UHGV virus genome: UHGV-0334473
DNA length: 37,645 nucleotides
Strand: one strand, 5' to 3'
From: a virus
In this document: positions 962 through 28,762 of the stretch, piece after piece
How positions within the stretch are numbered: the first letter of the stretch is position 1
How the letters are laid out: each line of letters opens with the position of its first letter
The notes under the pieces: generated by a model
Databases searched by the model: none
Told to the model about the DNA's origin: nothing
Seen by the model: only the letters and a program-made list of their open reading frames with translations
Program-made: the position numbers and the translations under genes

Positions 962-968
962 GCACAAA

Positions 969-1000
969 AAGATCACTCTTTGAGTGGTCTTTTTATTTTG
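969..1000 (+). terminator. rho-independent terminator (AGATCACTC-tt-TGAGTGGTCT + TTTTTATTTTG)
   Basis: GC-containing hairpin followed by T-run; nearly identical copy at 1733-1762. Confidence 0.6.
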
Positions 1001-1018
1001 CACAAAGGAGGATTAGAA

Positions 1019-1726
1019 ATGGCTGTGTCATTAATGGATACCTCTTGGGGTCAAGTAGATAATTTTTATTTAGATTCTCCTTTACCGAAACAGTCTATTT
1101 GTTATAATTTAAACAAAAAGATTGAGAAGAGGGAAAAACAAATGGATCCACAATTAGTTGAACTAAGCGCGAGGCTTACCGAGGTAGCACTAAAAACTAC
1201 AGCAACATCAATTTCATCAAAACTTAAAGCTGTAAAACAAAGCAGAGATGATAAAAAAATAATTGCTGAAATGAACGATATGATTTATGAATTGCTTGAT
1301 GATAAACAGGAGTTAGAAGCCATAGCAAAATCTTACCAAGAAGAATTCATCGCACAAAAATTGAGTGAAGACGATCTGAAGTATATTTCCTCAACTGTTT
1401 TACCAATTATGAAAAAATTTCTTGAAGAATTAGCCGAAACACAAGAAGTAGAAGAGCGATTAAAGACAATAAAATTAATTGAATCTTTGGATGCATTTGA
1501 GTCACTGCTATCCATAAATACTTTAAATGTTCTTCAGCTTATTGGATTTAACTTCAAAAAAGGAATTGGCGAGCCATTAACTGAGTTAATCAAAAATTCT
1601 ATAAATGGTTCAAATAAAAAAGATCAGATAAAATATAACGAACTTATTGCGGAAAGGGATATTGAATACTTCAAATTGATCCAAGATAAAGAAGCATATG
1701 ATCGGTTTATGAGTTTAAGGAATTGA
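1019..1726 (+). CDS. hypothetical alpha-helical protein (235 aa), terminator-flanked cassette gene
   Basis: ATG at 1019 with AAGGAGG 8 nt upstream (track start 980 is a TTG inside the terminator hairpin); no family recognised. Confidence 0.55.
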   Translation: MAVSLMDTSWGQVDNFYLDSPLPKQSICYNLNKKIEKREKQMDPQLVELSARLTEVALKTTATSISSKLKAVKQSRDDKKIIAEMNDMIYELLDDKQELEAIAKSYQEEFIAQKLSEDDLKYISSTVLPIMKKFLEELAETQEVEERLKTIKLIESLDAFESLLSINTLNVLQLIGFNFKKGIGEPLTELIKNSINGSNKKDQIKYNELIAERDIEYFKLIQDKEAYDRFMSLRN

Positions 1727-1732
1727 TAATGA

Positions 1733-1762
1733 AGACCACTCGCTGAGTGGTCTTTTTATTTT
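1733..1762 (+). terminator. rho-independent terminator (GACCACTC-gct-GAGTGGTC + TTTTTATTTTG)
   Basis: Perfect 8-bp stem plus T-run; direct repeat of the 969-1000 element. Confidence 0.7.
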
Positions 1763-1778
1763 GAAAGGAGTTTTATCT

Positions 1779-1991
1779 ATGAATGAAAACCAATTAAGAG
1801 AATTATTTAAAACGAATGAAGCAAACCAAACCATGGAGGCGACATTCTATGAAACTCAAAAAAGCTTAGCGTTAATCGCAAAACAAGCTAAGTATTTCTA
1901 TGACCAGCTTATTCTACAAGGGTTTAATGAAGGACAGGCTATGGAATTTATGATGCGAACCTTTTCTGCCAGTAACCAACAGAAAGAGTGA
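1779..1991 (+). CDS. hypothetical small protein
   Basis: ATG at 1779 after AGGAG; 70 aa. Confidence 0.45.
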   Translation: MNENQLRELFKTNEANQTMEATFYETQKSLALIAKQAKYFYDQLILQGFNEGQAMEFMMRTFSASNQQKE

Positions 1992-1997
1992 TACATA

Positions 1998-2228
1998 ATG
2001 AGAAACTACTGGTATGTATCACTAACTAATGAATATCCTCGAACCATTGATGATTGTTCAGTGCGTGTTGTGCGTTCTGTACAAATCAAAGGGAAGTACT
2101 CTATTGTCGAAATGGGGAGAGAAGCAACACCAAAAGAGATTGATGCGTGCAAGCTCGTTTATTGCGGTCATGGTTTCTATGATGAACCAAACATTCAAAA
2201 TAATATTAACAAGAATTTGAGGGATTAG
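1998..2228 (+). CDS. hypothetical protein (possibly truncated; coding-like sequence continues in the -1 frame to about 2340)
   Basis: 76 aa ORF; downstream frame 2210-2340 has coding-like composition but no start. Confidence 0.4.
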   Translation: MRNYWYVSLTNEYPRTIDDCSVRVVRSVQIKGKYSIVEMGREATPKEIDACKLVYCGHGFYDEPNIQNNINKNLRD

Positions 2229-2386
2229 AATGCAAGAAATGGCTTAAAAATCTCCAATCAGGACAAATCAAGTTAGACAAAGTTTCCGATTTAAAGATAT
2301 TGATTGAAGCTGATTTAATGCTAAAAGATATTGAAAATTAGAAAACAAAACTCAACCTAAGAAGATTGCGAGGTGGTGTGTATTGA

Positions 2387-3229
2387 ATGGCAAGAAAACG
2401 TGACCCGAGGCGTGATGAAGCATTTGAATTGTTTAAAAAGTTTAATGGAACAATAACTAACCGAGAAATTTCTGAAAAGTTATCTGTTCCAGAAAAGACT
2501 ATCTCAGCATGGAAATCACGTGATAAATGGAATGAAGTGCTACGAAAAGATGAATGTAGTACTTCAAATAATGAATGTAGTACTACGAATAAGGGTGGCG
2601 CACCTATCGGCAATCAGAATGCCATAGGTAACAAAGGAAACAGCAGAGCATCACCACCTAAGAGAAACAAGAATGCTTTGAAAACAGGCGAATATGAAAC
2701 AATATTCTTTGACACGTTAAGCGATGACGAAAAGGACATCTATTCAAGTTTGGATGATGATCCTTCTTTTGTTTTGTCTGAGGAAATACGGTTGTTAAAG
2801 ATACGCCAGTTACGAATGATGAAACGGATAAAAGAAGCCGAGTCAGGTTTAAACGATGAAGAGGTTGATCGCCTGCAACAAATGCGAAAGATTAAAACGC
2901 CAATCGAAAAGGATGGTAAAAAGCTAGAAATCAAGCGTGAGGTTATGCAAGATGTGCAGATTAGCAGAAAAACACATCGCAAAATTGATGATATTCTTTC
3001 AATTGAAGATTCATTGACTCGGATTAGCAACCAGTTAGCTAAAGCCATCAAGCAAATGAATGAGCTTTATATGAATGAATACAGAACTGATTTAATTAAA
3101 GCTCAGACTGATAAGATTCAAGCTGAGACAAATGAAATTGGCGGAAATAATTCAGGTGAAGAAATAGAGGAATGGAAACAGGCAGTTTTAAATGCCGCAA
3201 ACAAACGGGCGGTGAAAGAAAATGAATAA
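2387..3229 (+). CDS. terS: terminase small subunit
   Basis: N-terminal motif MARKRDPRRDEAFELFKKFNGTITNREISEKLSVPEKTISAWKSRDKWN typical of Firmicutes phage TerS with HTH; overlaps terL start (ATGAATAATGA). Confidence 0.85.
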   Translation: MARKRDPRRDEAFELFKKFNGTITNREISEKLSVPEKTISAWKSRDKWNEVLRKDECSTSNNECSTTNKGGAPIGNQNAIGNKGNSRASPPKRNKNALKTGEYETIFFDTLSDDEKDIYSSLDDDPSFVLSEEIRLLKIRQLRMMKRIKEAESGLNDEEVDRLQQMRKIKTPIEKDGKKLEIKREVMQDVQISRKTHRKIDDILSIEDSLTRISNQLAKAIKQMNELYMNEYRTDLIKAQTDKIQAETNEIGGNNSGEEIEEWKQAVLNAANKRAVKENE

Positions 3230-20835: not shown

Positions 20836-21243
20836 ATGAAGATAGTTTACAAAGTATTATATCCACTAGGTTACGAAGAACACGAAGTAGAGGATAATTT
20901 CCCAACTGGTTTACCTTTTGTAGAAGTTCCACCTATTTTGTTTGAGAAGAAGGAAGATGAGACGGATGAAGCTTTCGGAAGAAGACAACAGTCGCAATTC
21001 TTTAACTTCACTGAAAATAAGTGGGAAGAAGCAGTTACACAAGATTATTCAAAAAAATTAGAACTACTAGAAAATTTATCTATAGGTTTACAGGTAGATA
21101 ATGCTGCATTGAAAAAATCAAATGAAGAGTTAACGGAAAAAGCAGATTCGATGGCGCAGTTGAACGCCAAACTGATGCTTAATGATTTAACAATTAATAA
21201 AAAAATTGAAGCAATAGAAAAACAAATTGGAGGTGCTTCATAA
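20836..21243 (+). CDS. hypothetical protein (XkdW-like position)
   Basis: 135 aa between fibres and XkdX-like ORF. Confidence 0.45.
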   Translation: MKIVYKVLYPLGYEEHEVEDNFPTGLPFVEVPPILFEKKEDETDEAFGRRQQSQFFNFTENKWEEAVTQDYSKKLELLENLSIGLQVDNAALKKSNEELTEKADSMAQLNAKLMLNDLTINKKIEAIEKQIGGAS

Positions 21244-21380
21244 TGTTTAGTTTTAGCGATGTGAAAATGATGTATGATTGGGGCTGTTTTACTGACGATC
21301 AAGTTCGACAATTCGTTCCACTATGCATTACAGACGAAGAAGCAGATAAAATCATTAGCAAAGAAGAGAGCGCATCTTAA
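21243..21380 (+). CDS. XkdX-family small protein (45 aa), not in ORF track
   Basis: MFSFSDVKMMYDWGCFTDDQVRQFVPLCITDEEADKIISKEESAS matches XkdX pattern (yeWG.yt.eqv..fV..g.IT.eey..I); TAATG coupling. Confidence 0.55.
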   Translation: MFSFSDVKMMYDWGCFTDDQVRQFVPLCITDEEADKIISKEESAS

Positions 21381-21400
21381 TTGATGTGCTTTTTATTTTG
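21369..21400 (+). terminator. intrinsic terminator (AGCGCATC-ttaatt-GATGTGCT + TTTTTATTTTG)
   Basis: Hairpin with one G-U pair then T-run; shares conserved T-tail with 991-1000, 1753-1762, 7471-7481. Confidence 0.5.
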
Positions 21401-21417
21401 ATTCAAGGAGTTGTCAC

Positions 21418-21711
21418 ATGATTAATTTAGGGGAATGGGGAACAATCGCAGGATCAATCACTGCGATTGTTTCTTTGATTTTATTAGTAATAAAACCAAT
21501 TACTGCATCTTTCTCGAAGATTACTGAGACTCTTTCAAAAGTAAGTCACAATTTAGATTTGCTTACTAAAGATTTAGAATCGAGCAAATCAGATCGATTG
21601 ATGATTCATGAAGAACTAAAGAAACACGATGAAAGATTAGATACACATACAGAAAAATTGGTGGAACACACGCAACAAATCAAAACTTTGTTTAGGGAGA
21701 GAAGAAAATGA
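21418..21711 (+). CDS. membrane/coiled-coil protein of the lysis cassette (possible holin accessory)
   Basis: N-terminal TM helix then heptad-rich C-terminus; overlaps holin start. Confidence 0.45.
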   Translation: MINLGEWGTIAGSITAIVSLILLVIKPITASFSKITETLSKVSHNLDLLTKDLESSKSDRLMIHEELKKHDERLDTHTEKLVEHTQQIKTLFRERRK

Positions 21712-21932
21712 ATAATAAAACGTTCGAAGTACTAAAATGGTTCGCACTGGTAATTATTCCCGCACTAGCTACTTTCGTGGGGTTAGTTGGTAAAGCGCTC
21801 AATTGGCAGTACACAGATATCTGTGTTGTCATCATTACTGGTTTTGGCGCGTTTTTAGGGAGTGTGTTGGGTGTATCAAATCGAACCTACAAAATGTTCT
21901 CGGCTGAAAGCGAAGAAGGAGGAAACAAATGA
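21708..21932 (+). CDS. holin (two TM; phi LC3-family-like)
   Basis: 74 aa, two hydrophobic helices, charged C-terminus, immediately upstream of endolysin. Confidence 0.65.
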   Translation: MNNKTFEVLKWFALVIIPALATFVGLVGKALNWQYTDICVVIITGFGAFLGSVLGVSNRTYKMFSAESEEGGNK

Positions 21933-22948
21933 AAAAGAAAATTACTATTACTGCGGTGAGCCTATTAACGGCTCTTTTTTTATTGCCAATTAACGGATTT
22001 GCCTATACTATCAACAATGAATTTAATTTGGGCCCAAACGAAGGTAGCTCACAAGTAGCAAATAATCAGTACATTTTACTGCATGAAACAGCTAATGAAA
22101 CAGCAACAGGACGCAATGAAGCGCAGTATATGCAACGTTCATGGACTAGTGCTTACACTGCTTACATTGTGGGTGATGGCGGAATTGTTTACCAAGTTGG
22201 ACAACCTGGTTATGTACAGTATGGTGCTGGTTCATATGCTAATGCCAACAGTCCTGTGCAAATCGAGTTACAACACACACATAATAAAGCAACTTTTGAA
22301 AAGAACTATAAAGCATATGTTGAATTGGCAAGAGATTCAGCAATGAAATATGGTATTCCATTAACATTGGACACTCCTTATAACCAACCAGGAATCAAAT
22401 CACATTTATGGGTAACGCAAAATATCTGGGGAGATCATACAGATCCTTACGGTTATCTTTCTGAAATGGGCGTAAGTAAAGAAAAATTAGCATATGATTT
22501 AGCTCATGGATTTACCGATGAAAATCCGACAACTTCAGATGATAAACCAGTCATTGATCCAACACGAGCTGGTGCAGCAAATCCTACGCTGACAGATGGA
22601 ACGAATCATTCTCATATTGATCAGTTTGGGGAAATAGAAAATGCAAACTTGCACGTCGCTGGCTGGCACATCGCTAACTATAAATACGAGTACATTTTTA
22701 TCATGGACTATAATACTGGGAAAGAATTAGCTAGAGTAAAAGCTGATGGAATTTATAGACCGGATGTAAATCAAGCGTATGGGACATCTGGAAATGTTGG
22801 CTATCATGTATCTTTTAACATGCGTAACTTCCCTAATAAGAAAGTCTATGTCATGATGCGGGCAACGAATGATCCAGAGGGAAACACTAAAGGCGGTGCG
22901 CAAGATTTCCATGACAAACGTTGGTATTTAAATATTCCTAAACGATAA
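21929..22948 (+). CDS. endolysin: N-acetylmuramoyl-L-alanine amidase (Amidase_2-like) with N-terminal signal peptide and C-terminal wall-binding domain
   Basis: MKKKITITAVSLLTALFLLPINGFA signal-like N-terminus; ILLHETAN...QIELQH amidase motifs. Confidence 0.75.
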   Translation: MKKKITITAVSLLTALFLLPINGFAYTINNEFNLGPNEGSSQVANNQYILLHETANETATGRNEAQYMQRSWTSAYTAYIVGDGGIVYQVGQPGYVQYGAGSYANANSPVQIELQHTHNKATFEKNYKAYVELARDSAMKYGIPLTLDTPYNQPGIKSHLWVTQNIWGDHTDPYGYLSEMGVSKEKLAYDLAHGFTDENPTTSDDKPVIDPTRAGAANPTLTDGTNHSHIDQFGEIENANLHVAGWHIANYKYEYIFIMDYNTGKELARVKADGIYRPDVNQAYGTSGNVGYHVSFNMRNFPNKKVYVMMRATNDPEGNTKGGAQDFHDKRWYLNIPKR

Positions 22949-22953
22949 AAATA

Positions 22954-22976
22954 GCTCCTCGTTGAGGAGCATTACA
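22954..22976 (+). terminator. weak terminator hairpin after endolysin (GCTCCTC-gtt-GAGGAGC)
   Basis: 7-bp GC stem, poor T-tract. Confidence 0.35.
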
Positions 22977-22984
22977 TAACTATA

Positions 22985-23014
22985 TTGACAACTATAAAAA
23001 TCATTCGATAAAAT
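22985..23014 (+). promoter_or_regulatory. sigma-A-like promoter (TTGACA-18-TAAAAT) upstream of tRNA leader
   Basis: Consensus -35 and good -10. Confidence 0.45.
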
Positions 23015-23136: not shown

Positions 23137-23210
23137 GTACCCTTAGCTCAGTTGGTCAGAGCAGACGGCTCATAACCGTCCGGTCGTAGGTTCGAGTCCT
23201 ACAGGGTACA
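23137..23210 (+). tRNA. tRNA with CAT anticodon (elongator tRNA-Met or lysidine-type tRNA-Ile2), 74 nt, no encoded CCA
   Basis: Manual cloverleaf: 7-bp acceptor GTACCCT/AGGGTAC, D arm GCTC/GAGC, anticodon stem GACGG/CCGTC with loop CTCATAA, T arm GTAGG-TTCGAGT-CCTAC; G1-C72 paired so not initiator. Confidence 0.8.
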
Positions 23211-23247
23211 TAATTTAATCTATTTGATAAAAAATAAAATTCAATAA

Positions 23248-23256
23248 TGGTATAAT
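23248..23256 (+). promoter_or_regulatory. extended -10 promoter (TGGTATAAT) for toxin mRNA (RNA I-like)
   Basis: Perfect TGnTATAAT about 50 nt upstream of the toxin SD. Confidence 0.5.
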
Positions 23257-23308
23257 AAAATGTCGGCTCGTCGCTTCCACAGAGATTTTCGTGGGAGGAG
23301 GTGTATGA

Positions 23309-23398
23309 TTTGTTTGAATTCACTTTGGAGCACGTGCTCTTGCCATTGTTAATTGGTTTAACTTTGGCATTATTTAGTCATTGGCTAGATAAACATTA
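23309..23398 (+). CDS. Fst/Ldr-like type I toxin peptide (29 aa: MFEFTLEHVLLPLLIGLTLALFSHWLDKH)
   Basis: TTG 8 nt after GGAGG; single TM helix plus charged tail; ALFSHWL resembles Fst-family motif; followed by intrinsic terminator. Confidence 0.55.
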
Positions 23399-23410
23399 GA
23401 GCCGACAATG

Positions 23411-23446
23411 GCGCTTACTGTTTCGCAGCGGTAAGCGTCTTTTTTT
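23411..23446 (+). terminator. intrinsic terminator of toxin mRNA (GCGCTTAC...GTAAGCGT + T7)
   Basis: 8-bp stem and T7 run. Confidence 0.65.
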
Positions 23447-23487
23447 GAAAAAGAAAAAAACACAACGTATTCGCAGGTACGTTGTGT
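23447..23487 (-). terminator. minus-strand intrinsic terminator (ACACAACGT-loop-ACGTTGTGT + U-run) serving antisense RNA and integrase
   Basis: Perfect 9-bp stem followed on the minus strand by TTTTTTTCTTTTTC. Confidence 0.6.
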
Positions 23488-23519
23488 TTATGGTGTATAT
23501 TTGTTTAAATTCACTTTCA
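23450..23519 (-). ncRNA. candidate RNA II-like antitoxin sRNA (about 65-70 nt) complementary to the toxin start region
   Basis: Minus-strand TTGACA-16-TATAAT promoter at 23526-23553; contains repeat 23499-23517 matching 23307-23325 (18/19) over the toxin start codon; ends at minus-strand terminator. Confidence 0.45.
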
Positions 23520-23573
23520 ATTATTATTATACTTGTTAAATAAATTGTGTCAATATAAAAGATATTTTTATAC

Positions 23574-23619
23574 GTGTACTAACCTATATTATCCTTCCGG
23601 AATATATAAGTTAGTACAC
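23574..23619. other. candidate attP of the serine integrase (46-bp imperfect palindrome, 19/23 symmetric positions, asymmetric centre TC)
   Basis: GTGTACTAACCTATATTATCCTTCCGGAATATATAAGTTAGTACAC lies 5 bp from the integrase stop codon. Confidence 0.5.
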
Positions 23620-23624
23620 ATAAA

Positions 23625-24977
23625 TTATATAAGGAAATTTACTGTTATATTGCCATCTGGAAATACTATTATGTTATCGATAATTGAACGCCATAATGCA
23701 TTTTTTTCTTCTTCCGAAGATTCTTTATAAATTTCATCGAATTCTTTTGATAGAATAAATTCGACATTTTTTATATCTATTTTAGCTGGCTCTACTTCAA
23801 TTTCATTTAATTCTTTCATTAAAGCTTCTCGATCTTTTTTGTATTCCTCTAAGTCTATAACTTCATTCAAGTAGGCTTTCTTCAATCTATCTAATTTATT
23901 CTCAATATTTTTCTTAATATTTTTCTTTTTAATAATCTTTGGTTGTTTTTTTGAATAGTTTATTTGTATTTGTTCAAATTTTTGTTTAGTAGCTTCAAAA
24001 ATATAACGTTCTAAATTTTTTTCGTAAAAAGCGCGCTTATTTGTGCAACGTAATTTATTATTTCTTCGTTTTACACATCTATAACAAGTCCTTTCGTATA
24101 TAGATTCTGTACCGTCTTTTTTCTTATATCTTGCTTTAATAGTTTGACCAGCTACTGATCCCTGACAGTCAGAACATTTTAATAAACCTTTAAAAATGTA
24201 ATCACGTTTTGCATTTGTTTTTAAATTTTTAGGTAAGGCTTTTTGAACAGCATAAAAAAGTTTTTTATCAATAATAGGAGGACAGTAATTTTTATTATTT
24301 CTTAATTCACCAATGTATTTTTTGTTCGTCAACATATTTTTAACACTTTGATAATCTCTAACGATTCCATACTGAGAGCCTAAATAATAAACAGTTTTTC
24401 TTAAACTACCACTAGAAAGAAAGTAGTTGAATATATCTATCACGATAGGAGCATCATCATTTATTACTAATTTCTTATTTTCTATAGAGTAGCCTAACGG
24501 AGTTTTCCCGCTTACTACTTCACCTTGTGCAATTTTATTTGCCATAACAGCTTTGATGCGTTCTGAATCAATTTGGGCTTCCAATTCAGCAAAACTCATT
24601 ACTTGTGCAATGAAAGTTCTGCCATACGCTGTAGTTGTATCATAATATTGTTGAGAAACAGCATTCCAAGAAACATTGTGTTTTTCTAAAATTTCTTGAG
24701 TGTTTAAATAATGTCGTAGATTTCTAAACCATCTATCTAATTTTGTAAATAAAATTAGATCTATTTTATTTTCTTTTACATCTTGTAATAGTTTTTGAAA
24801 TTCATCACGATTTATTTTTTGACCAGAAATACCACCGTCTACATATTCATTAACTACTTTCAAATCCTTGTGTTGTTCGATATATTCATAGAGGGTTTCT
24901 TTTTGTTCTCTAAGACTATCTCCATGTTTGGCTTGTTGTTCAGTTGATACTCTCATATATAATGCTACTCGTTTCAT
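23625..24977 (-). CDS. int: large serine recombinase (integrase)
   Basis: N-terminal resolvase catalytic motif YMRVSTEQQ; 450 aa with Cys-rich recombinase/zinc-ribbon region and C-terminal coiled coil; RBS AAGGAGA. Confidence 0.85.
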   Translation of the reverse strand: MKRVALYMRVSTEQQAKHGDSLREQKETLYEYIEQHKDLKVVNEYVDGGISGQKINRDEFQKLLQDVKENKIDLILFTKLDRWFRNLRHYLNTQEILEKHNVSWNAVSQQYYDTTTAYGRTFIAQVMSFAELEAQIDSERIKAVMANKIAQGEVVSGKTPLGYSIENKKLVINDDAPIVIDIFNYFLSSGSLRKTVYYLGSQYGIVRDYQSVKNMLTNKKYIGELRNNKNYCPPIIDKKLFYAVQKALPKNLKTNAKRDYIFKGLLKCSDCQGSVAGQTIKARYKKKDGTESIYERTCYRCVKRRNNKLRCTNKRAFYEKNLERYIFEATKQKFEQIQINYSKKQPKIIKKKNIKKNIENKLDRLKKAYLNEVIDLEEYKKDREALMKELNEIEVEPAKIDIKNVEFILSKEFDEIYKESSEEEKNALWRSIIDNIIVFPDGNITVNFLI

Positions 24978-25009
24978 GTTATCTCCTTTCGAATGTATGT
25001 TCTTATCGT

Positions 25010-25034
25010 TGTAAAAGAAAAGCCCGAAGGCTAA
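25010..25034 (-). terminator. weak minus-strand terminator after DUF4041 gene (AGCC-ttcg-GGCT + T-rich)
   Basis: Short stem with tetraloop followed by TTTTCTTTT on the minus strand. Confidence 0.35.
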
Positions 25035-25042
25035 TCTTTTTA

Positions 25043-26332
25043 CTACACATCTGTTAATTCTAATGATCTTCTGTATTGTTCAGCTTGAGCTAGTTTAGTA
25101 AAAGATACAGTTCCGTTATAATTTTCTAAAACAACTTTTTCAATTTCATCAAGAGATACTTTAAAGAATTCTTTTCGTTGATTAACTTTATTGACTTCGT
25201 TTTTTCTAAAATGCGAATGTAGTTGATTTTCTAATGTTGGTGCATCTTCTGAAAATATCATTGCATGAACATCAAATTCAAAAGGTACAGAAGCGCTACT
25301 AAGTTCCTTAATTCTATCCATAGGTTCTAACCGTCTAGTCATTCCTATTTTATAGACATCTTCACCGAAAGATCCGATATTACTGATGACATAAACATAG
25401 CCAGCTCTAGTATTAAGTTCTCTTTGCAATACATCTTCTTTGACAGTTTCTAGTTCTCTTAATTTCTCTTCCAGTTCTTTAATTTTATCAGCATAGAGTT
25501 CTTTTTCAACATCAGCACTAGCTTTTTGCATGTATGCCATTAACTTAGTTATCTCTGAGTTAAACTGTCGTTCTTCTTTATCAATGCGTTTCTTTTCACG
25601 TTCTATTTCACGTCTTACCTTTTCTTCTTCAATCATTTGTTCTTTTATTGCTTTTTGCTGTTCTTTTTCATCGTTAACTTTAACTATGTATGAATAGTTG
25701 AGTTCTAATTCTTGAAGTTTTAATTCAAGTAATTCTTTTTTGAATTCTGCTTCATCGTTTTTAAAAAGCTTGTTTATTTTATCAAAAGTTCTTATAATTT
25801 TTTCTCTAGTTGAATCTACGTTAGAAATAGTAAGTTTATTGAGAAGTCCAGTTATTTCTGATTCTAATGGTATAAGCATTTTCTTTTTAATATTATTAGC
25901 TTCTCTATTATTCAAATAAGAAGGAATATTAATTGCACCGTCTAAAATAAAATCCTTTTCTTTAATCTTTAATAAAGAAAGTTTGTTTTTTATTTCGGAT
26001 GAAGAAGTTTCATCTATATTCGGAATAATTACTGATTTATAGATAGTGACCAGAGATGTGTCATATTTTTGATTAATTTCATCGTCTAACCGCTGGCTTT
26101 CAGCATTAAGAATATCAATTTTGTTTTCTAGCGTTGACAAGTTTTTATTCAATTTACTTATGTTTTTCTCTTTTTCAGATATAAACGTTTCCCTAGCATT
26201 TAATTCTTGAGAATATTCCTTTACCTTACTCTCTAAGGCAGAAGTTTTATCTTTTAATTTTTTAGCTTCAGATAATTTGCTACTACCCATAATTATTAAA
26301 ACTATTCCAACTAAAAACAATAGTACTCCCAT
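25043..26332 (-). CDS. membrane-anchored coiled-coil protein with C-terminal T5orf172 (GIY-YIG-like) domain, DUF4041-type architecture; moron between int and repressor
   Basis: N-terminal TM helix, about 280 aa of heptad-rich sequence, C-terminal AGYVYVISN...YKIGMTRRLEPMDRIKELSSASVPFEFDVH...LHSHF...KEFFKV matching T5orf172 consensus. Confidence 0.65.
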   Translation of the reverse strand: MGVLLFLVGIVLIIMGSSKLSEAKKLKDKTSALESKVKEYSQELNARETFISEKEKNISKLNKNLSTLENKIDILNAESQRLDDEINQKYDTSLVTIYKSVIIPNIDETSSSEIKNKLSLLKIKEKDFILDGAINIPSYLNNREANNIKKKMLIPLESEITGLLNKLTISNVDSTREKIIRTFDKINKLFKNDEAEFKKELLELKLQELELNYSYIVKVNDEKEQQKAIKEQMIEEEKVRREIEREKKRIDKEERQFNSEITKLMAYMQKASADVEKELYADKIKELEEKLRELETVKEDVLQRELNTRAGYVYVISNIGSFGEDVYKIGMTRRLEPMDRIKELSSASVPFEFDVHAMIFSEDAPTLENQLHSHFRKNEVNKVNQRKEFFKVSLDEIEKVVLENYNGTVSFTKLAQAEQYRRSLELTDV

Positions 26333-26418
26333 TCAAAACGCCTCGCTTCTTTTATAAAATAATTGTCAAAATCATATAAACCCTTACCGAAGTTGACGGC
26401 TCCGGCATGGGAATTTTT

Positions 26419-27123
26419 TTAAAATACAACTTTTCCGATAATTCTAATCTGTTCTGGCGATACAATTCTATCTTCGTATAAGTCGTTTATAGAACGTAAA
26501 ATGATTGTTTGATTTTCGTAATCTTTATATATCTCTTTACATGTAACTCCGTCACCACCTAATTCCACAATAGCAATTTCCCCATCTTCTACGTCCGGTT
26601 GTTCTTTAACGAATACGAATTGTCCATTCCTGATAACAGGTTCCATTGAATCGCCTATAATAGGTACTGCGAAGTCAGCAGCACTTGGAACTCTCTCAAA
26701 TTCTTCCTCTTCGACAACCGTATCACCGTAAGTAAGTTCTGTTGGATTGGCAGCCGAAGCCGAATTGTGAACAGTTGGGATTTTTTCTTTTTTAGGAAAA
26801 TCTAGGACATTTTCTTGTTTTTGTTCTTCTAATCGATTACTTGCAAATTCATAGGTAGCAACTTTATTTTCGTCGTTAAGCTGATTATATATAGGAAGGA
26901 TATTATATATCTGATTAGATATAGATAAATCAATATTCATCAAATCATCTATATCAACATTGAATATCTTAGCTATCTCATTTAAGGTTTTTAATTTTGG
27001 TGTATATTTTCCTTTTTCCCATTCGCTTATTGAGGATGAACTTTTTCTTCCTAGTTTTTCGGCTAGTTCTTGTTGATCAATATTATACTTTTCTCTAAGA
27101 AACTTTAGATTTTCAGCGAACAT
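26419..27123 (-). CDS. CI-like repressor: XRE HTH + S24 (LexA-like) peptidase domain
   Basis: HTH in N-terminus; C-terminal GDSMEP...K dyad region; ATG at 27123 after AAGGAGGTG (track start 27153 in frame upstream). Confidence 0.8.
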   Translation of the reverse strand: MFAENLKFLREKYNIDQQELAEKLGRKSSSSISEWEKGKYTPKLKTLNEIAKIFNVDIDDLMNIDLSISNQIYNILPIYNQLNDENKVATYEFASNRLEEQKQENVLDFPKKEKIPTVHNSASAANPTELTYGDTVVEEEEFERVPSAADFAVPIIGDSMEPVIRNGQFVFVKEQPDVEDGEIAIVELGGDGVTCKEIYKDYENQTIILRSINDLYEDRIVSPEQIRIIGKVVF

Positions 27124-27156
27124 AGTAACACCTCCTTGAGTTAATTGTAACACCGT

Positions 27157-27277
27157 TTCGGAAAAAATGTAACAGGTTTCTTAGAAAATATTTTAGTGTT
27201 TTTAAAGAAGTATTTACGCAAAATAGAAATCGATTTCAGGAAAACCGAAATATGCGCTTGACTTCGGAAAAACCGAA
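27157..27277. promoter_or_regulatory. divergent repressor/cro control region with operators TTCGGaaaaaCCGAA (perfect at 27263-27277, variant 27235-27249, half-site 27157-27167) and rightward promoter TTGACT-17-TATAAT (27258-27286)
   Basis: Repeated palindromic 15-mer overlapping promoter spacer between divergent cI-like and cro-like genes. Confidence 0.6.
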
Positions 27278-27322: not shown

Positions 27323-27589
27323 ATGGATACCGCGAAGAAAGAAAAATATACATTGAGACAATTAAGAGCTTTAAAGGGTTATTCAAAAGAAGAACTGTCA
27401 AGGAAAAGCAAAGTGACATCAAGAACAATATTTATTTACGAAAACGATGTAGATAAAATGAGGAACGGAAAGTACGCCACTCTAGAAAAAATTGCTAAGG
27501 CATTGGGTGTTAGAGTTTCCGATATTTTTTTAGACCCTGATTCGGAAAAACCGAAATCAATAACAGGTGAAACAAAACAAGTCAGCTAG
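27323..27589 (+). CDS. Cro-like XRE-family HTH regulator
   Basis: 88 aa HTH protein divergent from repressor. Confidence 0.7.
   Translation: MDTAKKEKYTLRQLRALKGYSKEELSRKSKVTSRTIFIYENDVDKMRNGKYATLEKIAKALGVRVSDIFLDPDSEKPKSITGETKQVS
27541..27555. promoter_or_regulatory. fourth, perfect operator copy (TTCGGAAAAACCGAA) inside the 3' end of the cro-like gene
   Basis: Exact copy of O1, 264 bp downstream. Confidence 0.5.
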
Positions 27590-27601: not shown

Positions 27602-27760
27602 GTGGAAGAGAAGAATATAAAAGTACCGACTCTTGAAGAATATACAAAAATTGTTGTCGAAACAGACGAGCAGAACCCGAAAACAATCGCAGTTATTACG
27701 GCGAATGATATTGAATCATGCGAAGGTTTTCGAGTTCGAATGACCCCTAGATATGATTAA
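27602..27760 (+). CDS. small protein (52 aa) ending ...GFRVRMTPRYD; paralogue of 28371-28526
   Basis: GTG 7 nt after AGGAGGTG; stop overlaps convergent DUF2188 gene at TTAA. Confidence 0.45.
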   Translation: MEEKNIKVPTLEEYTKIVVETDEQNPKTIAVITANDIESCEGFRVRMTPRYD

Positions 27761-27987
27761 TGTTCTTTATCACGTGGAGGTATAGGATCGTTTCCAAAAC
27801 TATCTTTTGATTGTATTTGTCCATTCTTTTTTTGGACAATAAACTCTGATTGCTGTTTTTTAGAAATCTTTTTACCATACTCAACAGCATCTGATTTATT
27901 ATCAAATAGTTTTGTATCTTCGGAATTACCTTCACCACGTACAGCCCATTTGCCATTTCTAGGAGATACCCATTGATTTTTACCCAT
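27757..27987 (-). CDS. DUF2188-family small protein
   Basis: MGKNQWVSPRNGKWAVRGEGNSE...SKDSFGNDPIPPRD matches DUF2188 pattern; RBS GAGGTGAA. Confidence 0.65.
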   Translation of the reverse strand: MGKNQWVSPRNGKWAVRGEGNSEDTKLFDNKSDAVEYGKKISKKQQSEFIVQKKNGQIQSKDSFGNDPIPPRDKEH

Positions 27988-28058
27988 AACAATTCACCTC
28001 GCTTTCAAGTTAATTCTATTAAGAGGTGAAAAGAAAACAAACTGATGGAGGTGAGATT

Positions 28059-28214
28059 GTGAGTAACAAGCCAAAAATCACTTTGAATGGCACACCTAAT
28101 CTTCAAAGATTAGCAGATGAAATGGCTAGAATACGTTCTAGACATTGGGGAGTTACTGTGGTGGCAACCATAATTGAACAAAAAGAAAAGCCCACACAGC
28201 CGGCAAGCAAGTAG
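28059..28214 (+). CDS. hypothetical small basic protein (about 51 aa)
   Basis: GTG 5 nt after GGAGGTG; track ORF extends to 28026. Confidence 0.35.
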   Translation: MSNKPKITLNGTPNLQRLADEMARIRSRHWGVTVVATIIEQKEKPTQPASK

Positions 28215-28370
28215 TGGGCACCATAGAACAATAATATTATATCACACACTCGCCACTTCCGAAAAGAGGAGTTGCTGCTCTCCTTTCAAGTTTGCCAAAG
28301 TCCACGTTTCTTCATTTTGGCAACTCCTCTTCTTGGAGGTGGTGACGGCGAGAGACGAAGGAGGGATGAC

Positions 28371-28526
28371 ATGAAGGAAGAATCAAAAATAGGGATTTTG
28401 AATGAGAACAATTACACAAGATTAATTATTGAAACAGAAGAAGGGGAAAAAGTAGCAGAAGTTACATTGACCGATGCAACTCCTGCTGACGGTTATCGTA
28501 TTCGATTAACTCCTAAATATGATTAA
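28371..28526 (+). CDS. small protein (51 aa) ending ...GYRIRLTPKYD; paralogue of 27602-27760
   Basis: ATG after AGGAGGGA; stop overlaps convergent DUF2188 gene at TTAA. Confidence 0.5.
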   Translation: MKEESKIGILNENNYTRLIIETEEGEKVAEVTLTDATPADGYRIRLTPKYD

Positions 28527-28762
28527 CCTTTTGGTGGGTGTGGATCGTTTCCGTGACTATCACGGCTTTGAATTTTTCCATCTCTGCCATGAATAAATAG
28601 CTCAGATCCTTGATTTTTAGAAATCTCTCTAGCGATTTTTACTGCTTCTGATTTTGTATTAGTATGTGCAGTCGCTTTAGAATTTCCAGCACCTTTGACA
28701 TTCCAACCACCATTGGAATTAGGTACAACATGTTGATTTTTTCCCATAGTTTTCACCTCCAT
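28523..28762 (-). CDS. DUF2188-family small protein (second copy)
   Basis: MGKNQHVVPNSNGGWNVKGAGNSKA...SRDSHGNDPHPPKG; RBS GGAGGTGAAAACT. Confidence 0.7.
   Translation of the reverse strand: MEVKTMGKNQHVVPNSNGGWNVKGAGNSKATAHTNTKSEAVKIAREISKNQGSELFIHGRDGKIQSRDSHGNDPHPPKG

What the first reader, a model, noticed from the sequence alone, without database searches (positions are those of the whole stretch)
25043..26332. Moron at the int/repressor junction encodes a membrane-anchored coiled-coil T5orf172 (GIY-YIG-like) protein: candidate defence/exclusion gene
The gene lies on the minus strand between integrase and CI-like repressor. This is the classic lysogenic-conversion and defence hotspot, and the gene has its own terminator. 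The 429-aa protein has a single N-terminal TM helix followed by about 280 aa of heptad-rich, highly charged coiled coil. It ends in a C-terminal domain that matches the T5orf172 (GIY-YIG-like) consensus: GYVYVisN...KIGMTrr...R.kELs...P..F.v.......E..LH..F...r....kEFF.v. This is an unusual membrane, long-stalk, putative nuclease-like architecture (DUF4041-type). To my knowledge it has no demonstrated function.
Basis: partly seen in the sequence, partly recalled or inferred. Interest (0 to 1): 0.75.

Follow-up and report, generated by a model that had tools for sequence, protein, structure and literature searches.

The report
Prophage-borne SNIPE (PD-λ-1) defence nuclease

Summary
The 429-aa ORF at 25043..26332 (-) exists as described. 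It lies between a CI-like HTH/S24 repressor and a large serine integrase in a ~37.6-kb Enterococcus temperate siphovirus. Profile searches confirm T5orf172/MUG113 (GIY-YIG clan) and DUF4041. The PADLOC PD-Lambda-1 model matches almost the whole protein (E 1e-114). PD-λ-1 was shown to be an anti-phage gene in 2022. [quoted passage not shown] The window protein is 39% identical to E. coli SNIPE (E 1e-66). It keeps the catalytic Glu (E368 = E414), has an N-terminal hydrophobic anchor, and models with the same domain order. Its C-terminal domain matches SLX1 and I-TevI GIY-YIG structures. The "280-aa coiled coil" is in fact helix, folded DUF4041 domain, then helical hairpin. A separate promoter for the gene was not found. 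Near-identical alleles are common in Enterococcus prophages. This is a new, untested member of a known kind, and interest is low.

The parts
25043..26332 (-). SNIPE / PD-λ-1 family gene (429 aa)
   Evidence: ORF. PADLOC PD-Lambda-1 E 1.3e-114. PHROG 1847 E 6e-145. 39% identity and E 1e-66 to E. coli SNIPE.
26285..26329 (-). codons 2-16: N-terminal hydrophobic membrane anchor (GVLLFLVGIVLIIMG), followed by a basic stretch, which predicts N-out / C-in
   Evidence: Kyte-Doolittle 15-mer maximum of 3.14. Helical in the AF2 model. An equivalent hydrophobic segment is present in 47 of 48 homologues although sequence identity there is only 34%.
26066..26284 (-). codons 17-89: long cytoplasmic helix of the variable N-terminal 'adapter' region
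   Evidence: AF2 helix 2-89, pLDDT 84-92. This is the least conserved region, with mean identity 0.24.
25739..26014 (-). codons 107-198: DUF4041 (SNIPE) domain, which in E. coli SNIPE is the DNA-binding and tape-measure-binding module
   Evidence: Pfam PF13250 E 4e-9 at aa 158-205. Compact helical domain with pLDDT 80-90. R176 occupies the position of the E. coli gain-of-function substitution E223K.
25406..25738 (-). codons 199-309: helical hairpin linking DUF4041 to the nuclease (the 'downstream α-helix' of SNIPE)
   Evidence: AF2 helices 199-270 and 274-309. Mean identity 0.68.
25118..25405 (-). codons 310-405: GIY-YIG (T5orf172/MUG113) nuclease domain
25229..25231 (-). codon E368, equivalent to the catalytic E414 of E. 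coli SNIPE
   Evidence: BLASTP and MAFFT alignments. Invariant in 48 homologues. The E414A primer oDS93 encodes APSL[A]KKLH.
26341..26344 (-). GAGG Shine-Dalgarno, 8 nt before the ATG
   Evidence: read directly from the sequence
25007..25047 (-). terminator-like hairpin (core AGCC-UUCG-GGCU followed by UUUUCUUUU) between SNIPE and int
   Evidence: Fold energy -13.9 kcal/mol, z -2.98, 1 of 200 shuffles as good. Not reported by the consensus scan.
26419..27123 (-). CI-like repressor (HTH_3 + Peptidase_S24), upstream in the same transcriptional direction
   Evidence: Pfam. The ATG start at 27123 with an AGGAGG SD agrees with the 234-aa gene call in L012.
27144..27173 (-). candidate lysogenic promoter (GTTACA-18-TGtTACAAT) that would drive cI and, by read-through, SNIPE
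   Evidence: consensus scan, 9 of 12 with an extended -10 TG; sequence. Inference only.
23625..24977 (-). large serine integrase, downstream neighbour
   Evidence: Pfam Resolvase, Recombinase and Zn_ribbon_recom

Best explanation
[quoted passage not shown] The steps below are inferred from homology to E. coli SNIPE and were not shown here. In a lysogen the gene is transcribed leftward with cI. The protein inserts into the cytoplasmic membrane through its N-terminal hydrophobic helix, with the rest in the cytoplasm, and the nuclease is kept away from the chromosome and inactive. [quoted passage not shown] The C-terminal GIY-YIG domain (catalytic E368) then cuts the entering DNA. This protects the lysogen without killing it and does not harm the resident prophage on induction. 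What was shown here: full-length family membership, domain order, an intact catalytic site, a conserved hydrophobic anchor, and placement in the prophage lysogeny module.
Against: No experiment exists for this protein or any enterococcal allele that I could find. In S. thermophilus, two PD-Lambda-1 alleles that are 98.5% identical differed completely in activity, so sequence alone cannot establish activity. The N-terminal region, which in E. coli mediates the ManYZ association, is unrelated in sequence and about 45 aa shorter, so any membrane partner is unknown. The region equivalent to the E. coli basic DUF4041 segment has net charge 0 here against +7 in the reference, and surface electrostatics were not computed. 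TM prediction rests on hydropathy and the AF2 helix only, because no dedicated TM predictor was available. Co-transcription with cI is inferred from the absence of a promoter and a non-significant intergenic hairpin.
Confidence: 0.8

Rival explanations
1. The protein is a genuine SNIPE-family member that is inactive or very narrow in range in its host. It would then be a passenger kept by linkage to cI rather than an effective defence.
For: Two S. thermophilus PD-Lambda-1 alleles that are 98.5% identical gave >3-log protection versus none. Wild-type E. coli SNIPE gives only about 1 log against many siphoviruses unless its DUF4041 is mutated.
Against: All catalytic and motif residues are invariant. 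The allele family is very common: the 98%-identical protein is listed in 354 blocks of the assembly collection, always as a full-length ORF. R176 already carries the basic residue that enhanced activity in E. coli as E223K.
Confidence: 0.12
2. The protein excludes superinfecting phages by physically blocking the injection channel or tape-measure protein, as lipoprotein or membrane Sie proteins do. The GIY-YIG domain would then serve only as a DNA-binding module, not as a nuclease.
For: T5orf172 domains are often annotated simply as DNA-binding. The int-cI position in Gram-positive prophages is typical for injection-blocking Sie genes (my own knowledge of Ltp of phage TP-J34 and Sie2009 of lactococcal phages). 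A related integrase locus carries a lipoprotein at this position.
Against: The catalytic Glu and the Tyr, Arg and Asn residues of the GIY-YIG active site are invariant across 48 homologues. In E. coli, E414A abolishes defence and the ΔTM form makes double-strand breaks.
Confidence: 0.04
3. It is a mobile GIY-YIG homing-type endonuclease or a phage-lifecycle nuclease (for example host DNA degradation or recombination) and has nothing to do with defence.
For: The GIY-YIG fold is shared with I-TevI and T4 EndoII. T5orf172 was named after a lytic-phage ORF.
Against: The match to PD-Lambda-1 is full-length, not limited to the nuclease domain. The membrane anchor is conserved. The gene lies in the lysogeny module, opposite in direction to the lytic genes. 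The window phage has its own RecE/RecT recombination genes in the early operon.
Confidence: 0.03

Closest known systems
SNIPE / PD-λ-1 of E. coli ECOR26 (RCP76574.1; XSB42081.1 in phage PhiR26_1). Vassallo et al. 2022 (PMC9519451); Saxton et al. 2026 (PMC13190303).
   Same: Single-gene system. Same order: N-terminal TM anchor, DUF4041, helix, GIY-YIG. 39% identity overall and about 64% in the nuclease domain. Catalytic Glu conserved. Also carried by a temperate siphovirus prophage.
   Different: The window protein is 71 aa shorter, mainly in the N-terminal region after the TM. The N-terminal adapter region is unrelated in sequence. The host is Gram-positive, so there is no outer membrane or LamB, and ManYZ dependence is unknown. 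The locus is int-cI rather than ren-rha in a lambdoid early region. It is untested experimentally.
PD-Lambda-1 EU01 of Streptococcus thermophilus (Nat Commun 2025, PMC12322248)
   Same: [quoted passage not shown]
   Different: It sits at a chromosomal locus rather than in a prophage. I did not have its sequence, so identity to the window protein was not measured.
Homologues in streptococcal prophages (S. pyogenes Javan476/447/492/523, S. pneumoniae EJ-1 ORF3, S. suis phiS10)
   Same: 45-53% identity (tblastn 47-53%; 48% and 45% in alignment A1), with 77-95% of the query covered for the named phages. Same position between integrase and cI-like repressor.
   Different: The Javan476 and EJ-1 integrases are only annotated 'integrase' / 'site-specific recombinase' in the records, and I did not type them. 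The N-terminal regions differ. In the phage records these genes are annotated as hypothetical, 'membrane protein' or DUF4041, not as defence genes.
Injection-blocking superinfection-exclusion proteins encoded between int and repressor in Gram-positive temperate phages (Ltp of TP-J34, Sie2009 of lactococcal P335 phages). From my own knowledge, not tested here.
   Same: Same genomic niche, expression from the prophage, action at the membrane at the DNA-entry step, and tape-measure protein as the target.
   Different: No sequence or fold relationship. Those proteins block entry without a nuclease domain, whereas SNIPE destroys the DNA.
GIY-YIG nucleases with solved structures (SLX1, I-TevI, UvrC N-terminal domain, R.Eco29kI, T4 EndoII, PD-T4-3)
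   Different: All are soluble and lack both the membrane anchor and DUF4041. Sequence identity is only 10-21%.

Membership tests
SNIPE / PD-λ-1 defence system | Near full-length match to the family profile (PADLOC PD-Lambda-1) and significant similarity to the characterised E. coli protein | tested here: met
   PDLC03976 E 1.3e-114, protein 21-427 against profile 61-473 of 491. BLASTP E 1e-66, 39% over 335 aa.
SNIPE / PD-λ-1 defence system | Central DUF4041 (PF13250) domain | tested here: met
   Pfam E 4.1e-9, 36.6 bits against a cut-off of 27. Precomputed annotation of the 98%-identical allele reads 'PF13250:SNIPE'. Folded helical domain in the model.
SNIPE / PD-λ-1 defence system | C-terminal GIY-YIG nuclease domain with the catalytic Glu (E414 in E. 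coli) | tested here: met
SNIPE / PD-λ-1 defence system | N-terminal transmembrane anchor within the first ~70 residues (present in about 66% of homologues according to the paper) | tested here: met
   Hydrophobic 15-mer at residues 1-15, KD 3.14, with basic residues after it. Helix in AF2. Conserved as a physicochemical feature in 47 of 48 homologues. No dedicated TM predictor was available.
SNIPE / PD-λ-1 defence system | Positively charged DNA-binding face on DUF4041 | tested here: inconclusive
   19 K/R in aa 107-210 but net charge 0, against +7 for the equivalent E. coli segment. Surface electrostatics were not computed.
SNIPE / PD-λ-1 defence system | Single-gene system with no conserved partner gene | tested here: met
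   Neighbours differ between loci: cI and serine integrase here, cI and tyrosine integrase in other Enterococcus prophages, ren and rha in PhiR26_1, other genes in EJ-1.
SNIPE / PD-λ-1 defence system | Membrane localisation, protection against siphoviruses, cleavage of DNA during injection, binding to tape-measure protein | not testable with these tools
   Experimental properties established only for the E. coli protein and, for protection only, for the S. thermophilus protein.
GIY-YIG nuclease superfamily | β-β-α-β-α core fold with Tyr (GIY), Tyr (YIG), Arg, Glu and Asn active-site residues | tested here: met
   Secondary-structure order E-E-H-E-H-E-H. Y314, R334, E368, N381 and N384 are invariant and Y327 is conserved in at least 90% of sequences. 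Structural neighbours are all GIY-YIG enzymes.
Moron in the strict sense (autonomous cassette with its own promoter and terminator, absent from related phages) | Own promoter immediately upstream | tested here: not met
   No sigma-70-like site on the minus strand in 26333-26418. Only an SD is present. The consensus scan is crude, so a weak promoter is not excluded.
Moron in the strict sense (autonomous cassette with its own promoter and terminator, absent from related phages) | Own terminator immediately downstream | tested here: met
   Hairpin plus U-tract, z -2.98. It is weak (4-bp G+C core) and function is not shown.
Moron in the strict sense (autonomous cassette with its own promoter and terminator, absent from related phages) | Variable presence at the same position in related elements | tested here: inconclusive
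   One relative (L015, 60%-identical integrase, also inserted in radC) carries an Rgg-like regulator and a lipoprotein instead. All four contigs with the identical integrase carry SNIPE, one of them as a gene truncated by the contig end with no Pfam record. Only one comparator locus was found.

The most novel reading that the evidence does not exclude
The enterococcal prophage allele may be more than a copy of the E. coli mechanism. Its TM helix starts at residue 2, so it has no extracellular tail, and its 17-89 helix is unrelated in sequence to the E. coli N-terminus. It could therefore dock on a different, Gram-positive-specific DNA-entry component, such as the PIP-type phage infection protein or the Man-PTS IIC/IID channel. 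Such an allele could be used as a probe to identify the still poorly defined inner-membrane route of genome entry for enterococcal siphoviruses. It could also act as a prophage-encoded exclusion system whose range is set by the linked immunity module.
Probability: 0.3. Interest if true: 0.45.

Novelty: new member of a known kind. Interest (0 to 1): 0.2.

Why it matters
For the scan this is a negative result: the 'unusual architecture with no demonstrated function' is the signature of a defence family described in 2022 and mechanistically resolved in 2026, and standard defence-finder HMMs detect it. It has modest practical value. It shows that SNIPE is a common cargo of the int-cI lysogeny junction of Enterococcus and Streptococcus prophages, which bears on phage-therapy host-range prediction for E. 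faecium and E. faecalis. It also offers a Gram-positive, prophage-borne allele for testing how general the injection-site nuclease mechanism is and what replaces ManYZ as the membrane partner.

Tried and rejected
2. A profile search of PDB sequences found no solved SNIPE relative, only coiled-coil matches.
3. NCBIfam has no model for the protein; all hits were far below the cut-offs.
4. Megablast of the int-SNIPE-cI region and of the rest of the window against 50,697 phage records found no close relative covering the locus, only short patches. The accessory status of the gene could therefore not be judged from sequenced phages.
5. The genome-contig scan with the serine integrase returned only one locus, so the 'hotspot' test rests on a single comparator.
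6. A look-up of the tyrosine integrase from the other Enterococcus prophages was not possible under the tool rules.
7. I considered that the N-terminal hydrophobic stretch might be a cleavable signal peptide. I rejected this because there is no basic n-region before it, the basic residues follow it, and the nuclease domain must be cytoplasmic to meet DNA, as shown for SNIPE topology.
8. Rfam gave no match for the putative antisense RNA of the neighbouring toxin-antitoxin candidate.

Full report
**Observation.** The window contains a 429-codon ORF on the minus strand at 25043..26332. Its neighbours on the same strand are a 450-aa large serine recombinase downstream (23625..24977; Resolvase, Recombinase, Zn_ribbon_recom) and a CI-like HTH_3/Peptidase_S24 repressor upstream (26419..27123). 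A Cro-like HTH gene diverges at 27323.

The rest of the window is a complete temperate siphovirus layout. It has terminase, portal, major head and major tail genes, a 938-aa tape-measure protein, Dit, a tail protein, holin and amidase. After the lysogeny module come RecE/RecT, a DnaD-like loader and a DnaC-like ATPase. Nucleotide and protein neighbours are all from Enterococcus.

**Domains.**
- Pfam gives MUG113 (E 2e-20) and T5orf172 (E 3e-18) at aa 311-401 and DUF4041 (E 4e-9) at aa 158-205.
- The first 15 residues are by far the most hydrophobic stretch and are followed by a lysine-rich segment.
- AlphaFold2 with a 48-sequence alignment (mean pLDDT 77.5) gives a continuous helix 2-89, a disordered linker 90-106, a compact helical domain at about 107-198 that contains the DUF4041 match, a helical hairpin 199-309, and a β-β-α-β-α-β-α domain at 311-405.
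About 90 of those residues form a folded domain.

**What it is.**
- The PADLOC model for PD-Lambda-1 matches residues 21-427 at E 1.3e-114. PHROG 1847 matches at E 6e-145.
- PD-λ-1 was isolated in a functional selection for anti-λ genes in E. coli. [quoted passage not shown]
- It was renamed SNIPE in Saxton et al., Nature 2026 (PMC13190303), which resolved the mechanism.
  - E414A or deletion of DUF4041 abolishes defence. Removal of the TM makes the protein a toxic chromosome-cutting nuclease.
  - DUF4041 binds DNA. Labelled λ DNA is cleaved during, but not after, injection, and prophage induction is unaffected.
  - SNIPE associates with ManYZ and with the λ tape-measure protein. It protects against siphoviruses but not myoviruses or podoviruses. 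Gain-of-function mutations map to DUF4041, escape mutations map to the tape-measure protein, and cross-linking captures that protein.
- A homologue protects Streptococcus thermophilus against several dairy phage genera (PMC12322248).
- The statement 'no demonstrated function' is therefore out of date.

**Membership tested directly.**
- I recovered the reference gene from phage PhiR26_1, where it is annotated 'PD-lambda-1' (500 aa, the length given for ECOR26 RCP76574.1).
- BLASTP gives 39% identity over 335 aa (E 1e-66), rising to about 64% in the nuclease domain.
- E414 aligns with E368 of the window protein. The mutagenic primer oDS93 confirms the site (APSL-A-KKLH).
- E368 is invariant in 48 homologues that range down to 48% identity. 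So are G311, Y314, K328, G330, R334, R340, H356, H372, N381 and N384. Y327 is conserved in at least 90% of them.
- Regional conservation (nuclease 0.82, hairpin 0.68, DUF4041 0.49, N-terminal helix 0.24, TM 0.34) reproduces the gradient reported for SNIPE homologues. A hydrophobic N-terminal segment is retained in 47 of 48 homologues.
- The one feature I could not confirm is the basic face of DUF4041. The segment has 19 K/R but no net charge.
- The residue equivalent to the E. coli gain-of-function site E223K is already Arg here (R176) and in most homologues.

**Genomic setting.**
- The gene follows cI after 86 nt with a GAGG ribosome-binding site. No recognisable promoter of its own was found.
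- A candidate lysogenic promoter with an extended -10 lies upstream of cI.
- A small hairpin plus U-tract follows the stop codon (z -2.98), and int starts 65 nt downstream.
- I infer expression from the prophage as part of the cI transcript. This is not shown.
- A 98%-identical allele is listed in 354 blocks of the assembly collection. In the loci shown it always lies as cI, SNIPE, integrase, but there the integrase is a tyrosine recombinase at a different chromosomal site.
- The shared DNA (95% identity) runs from the middle of cI (window 26833, after the HTH domain) to 10 nt before the int start codon (24987). SNIPE therefore travels with the 3' half of cI and is recombined onto different immunity specificities and integrases.
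- Homologues occupy the same int-cI slot in S. pyogenes Javan prophages and S. pneumoniae EJ-1.
- The E. coli reference is also prophage-borne, between ren and rha.
- In a survey of phage genomes, PD-Lambda-1 is among the commoner phage-encoded defence systems (n = 31).
- The family is large: 1305 clusters at 50% identity with E ≤ 1e-30, and at least 8000 sequences in the 90% database.

**Mechanism proposed.** The protein is a prophage-encoded, membrane-tethered nuclease that cleaves the DNA of superinfecting siphoviruses as it enters. It is positioned by DUF4041 contacts with the tape-measure protein and perhaps by an N-terminal contact with a host membrane protein. Tethering and autoinhibition spare self DNA.
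- Shown here: family membership, an intact active site, the anchor, and lysogeny-module placement.
- Inferred: expression, localisation, target range, and DNA cleavage at entry.
- Unknown: the membrane partner, because the N-terminal region is unrelated to that of E. coli SNIPE.
- Caveat: activity cannot be read from sequence, because 98.5%-identical S. thermophilus alleles differed completely in activity.

**Verdict.** This is an untested member of a known and mechanistically understood defence family, in a genomic position already typical for it. Interest is low.

Noticed in passing
window 23230-23560: Candidate par/Fst-type type I toxin-antitoxin between the tRNA and int. A 29-aa hydrophobic ORF (TTG 23311..23400, FEFTLEHVLLPLLIGLTLALFSHWLDKH) has a strong SD and a weak Pfam Fst_toxin hit (E 0.0012, below the gathering score). 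There are convergent terminators at 23410-23439 (+) and 23489-23458 (-), and a perfect 12/12 sigma-70 promoter on the minus strand (23553..23526). A 19-nt direct repeat (23308-23326 / 23499-23517) would make a short antisense RNA complementary to the toxin start region. No Rfam match.
   Followed up: partly
window 23571-23622; locus L012 6354-6400: A 24-nt imperfect inverted repeat (83% complementary, 4-nt spacer) ends 3 nt from the integrase stop codon. In contig L012 the same phage (99.97% identical) is integrated, and homology to the window stops at 23588, close to the centre of this repeat (within its left arm), where a RadC gene begins. The repeat is therefore the attP of the serine integrase, and radC is the attachment target. 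A 60%-identical integrase in Enterococcus sp. BWR-S5 (L015) also abuts a truncated radC.
   Followed up: yes
window 24987-26833 versus loci L004-L011: There is a mosaic joint inside cI. The linker and S24 peptidase half of cI, together with SNIPE and its downstream spacer, are 95% identical to Enterococcus prophages that have a different cI DNA-binding domain and a tyrosine integrase. The homology ends 10 nt before the int ATG.
   Followed up: yes
window 23137-23210 (promoter-like site 22985-23014): A phage-borne tRNA with anticodon CAT (Met, or Ile2 if lysidinylated) lies between the endolysin gene and attP. It is 99.5% identical to a stretch annotated tRNA-Ile in Enterococcus phage 4995_1.
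   Followed up: partly
window 27602-28762: A duplicated two-gene module. Two DUF2188 genes on the minus strand (27757..27987 and 28523..28762; Pfam E 2e-20 and 1e-26) each converge on, and slightly overlap, a small plus-strand ORF ending in R[VI]R[ML]TP[RK]YD (27602..27760 and 28272..28526). Function is unknown. The same pair is present in L012 and L013.
   Followed up: no
locus L015 2195-4788: In a related radC-integrating element, the slot upstream of the serine integrase holds an Rgg-like regulator (299 aa, Rgg_C E 4e-17) and a 190-aa predicted lipoprotein (signal MKKIAVLFILLLFSGC) with no Pfam match. The lipoprotein is a possible alternative exclusion cargo at the same position.
   Followed up: partly
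window 966-3054 and 21243-23000 (hits H62, H64, H66): Records labelled 'Listeria phage LM 4-11-1 / 4-14-1' and 'Acinetobacter phage D2SVT' share 90-95% nucleotide identity with parts of this Enterococcus phage. D2SVT also mirrors the hits of Enterococcus phage vB_ElaS_B1578. The host labels of those records look doubtful.
   Followed up: no
Pfam PF13250: The precomputed annotations of the assembly collection already label PF13250 as 'SNIPE', whereas the local Pfam-A copy still calls it DUF4041.
   Followed up: no
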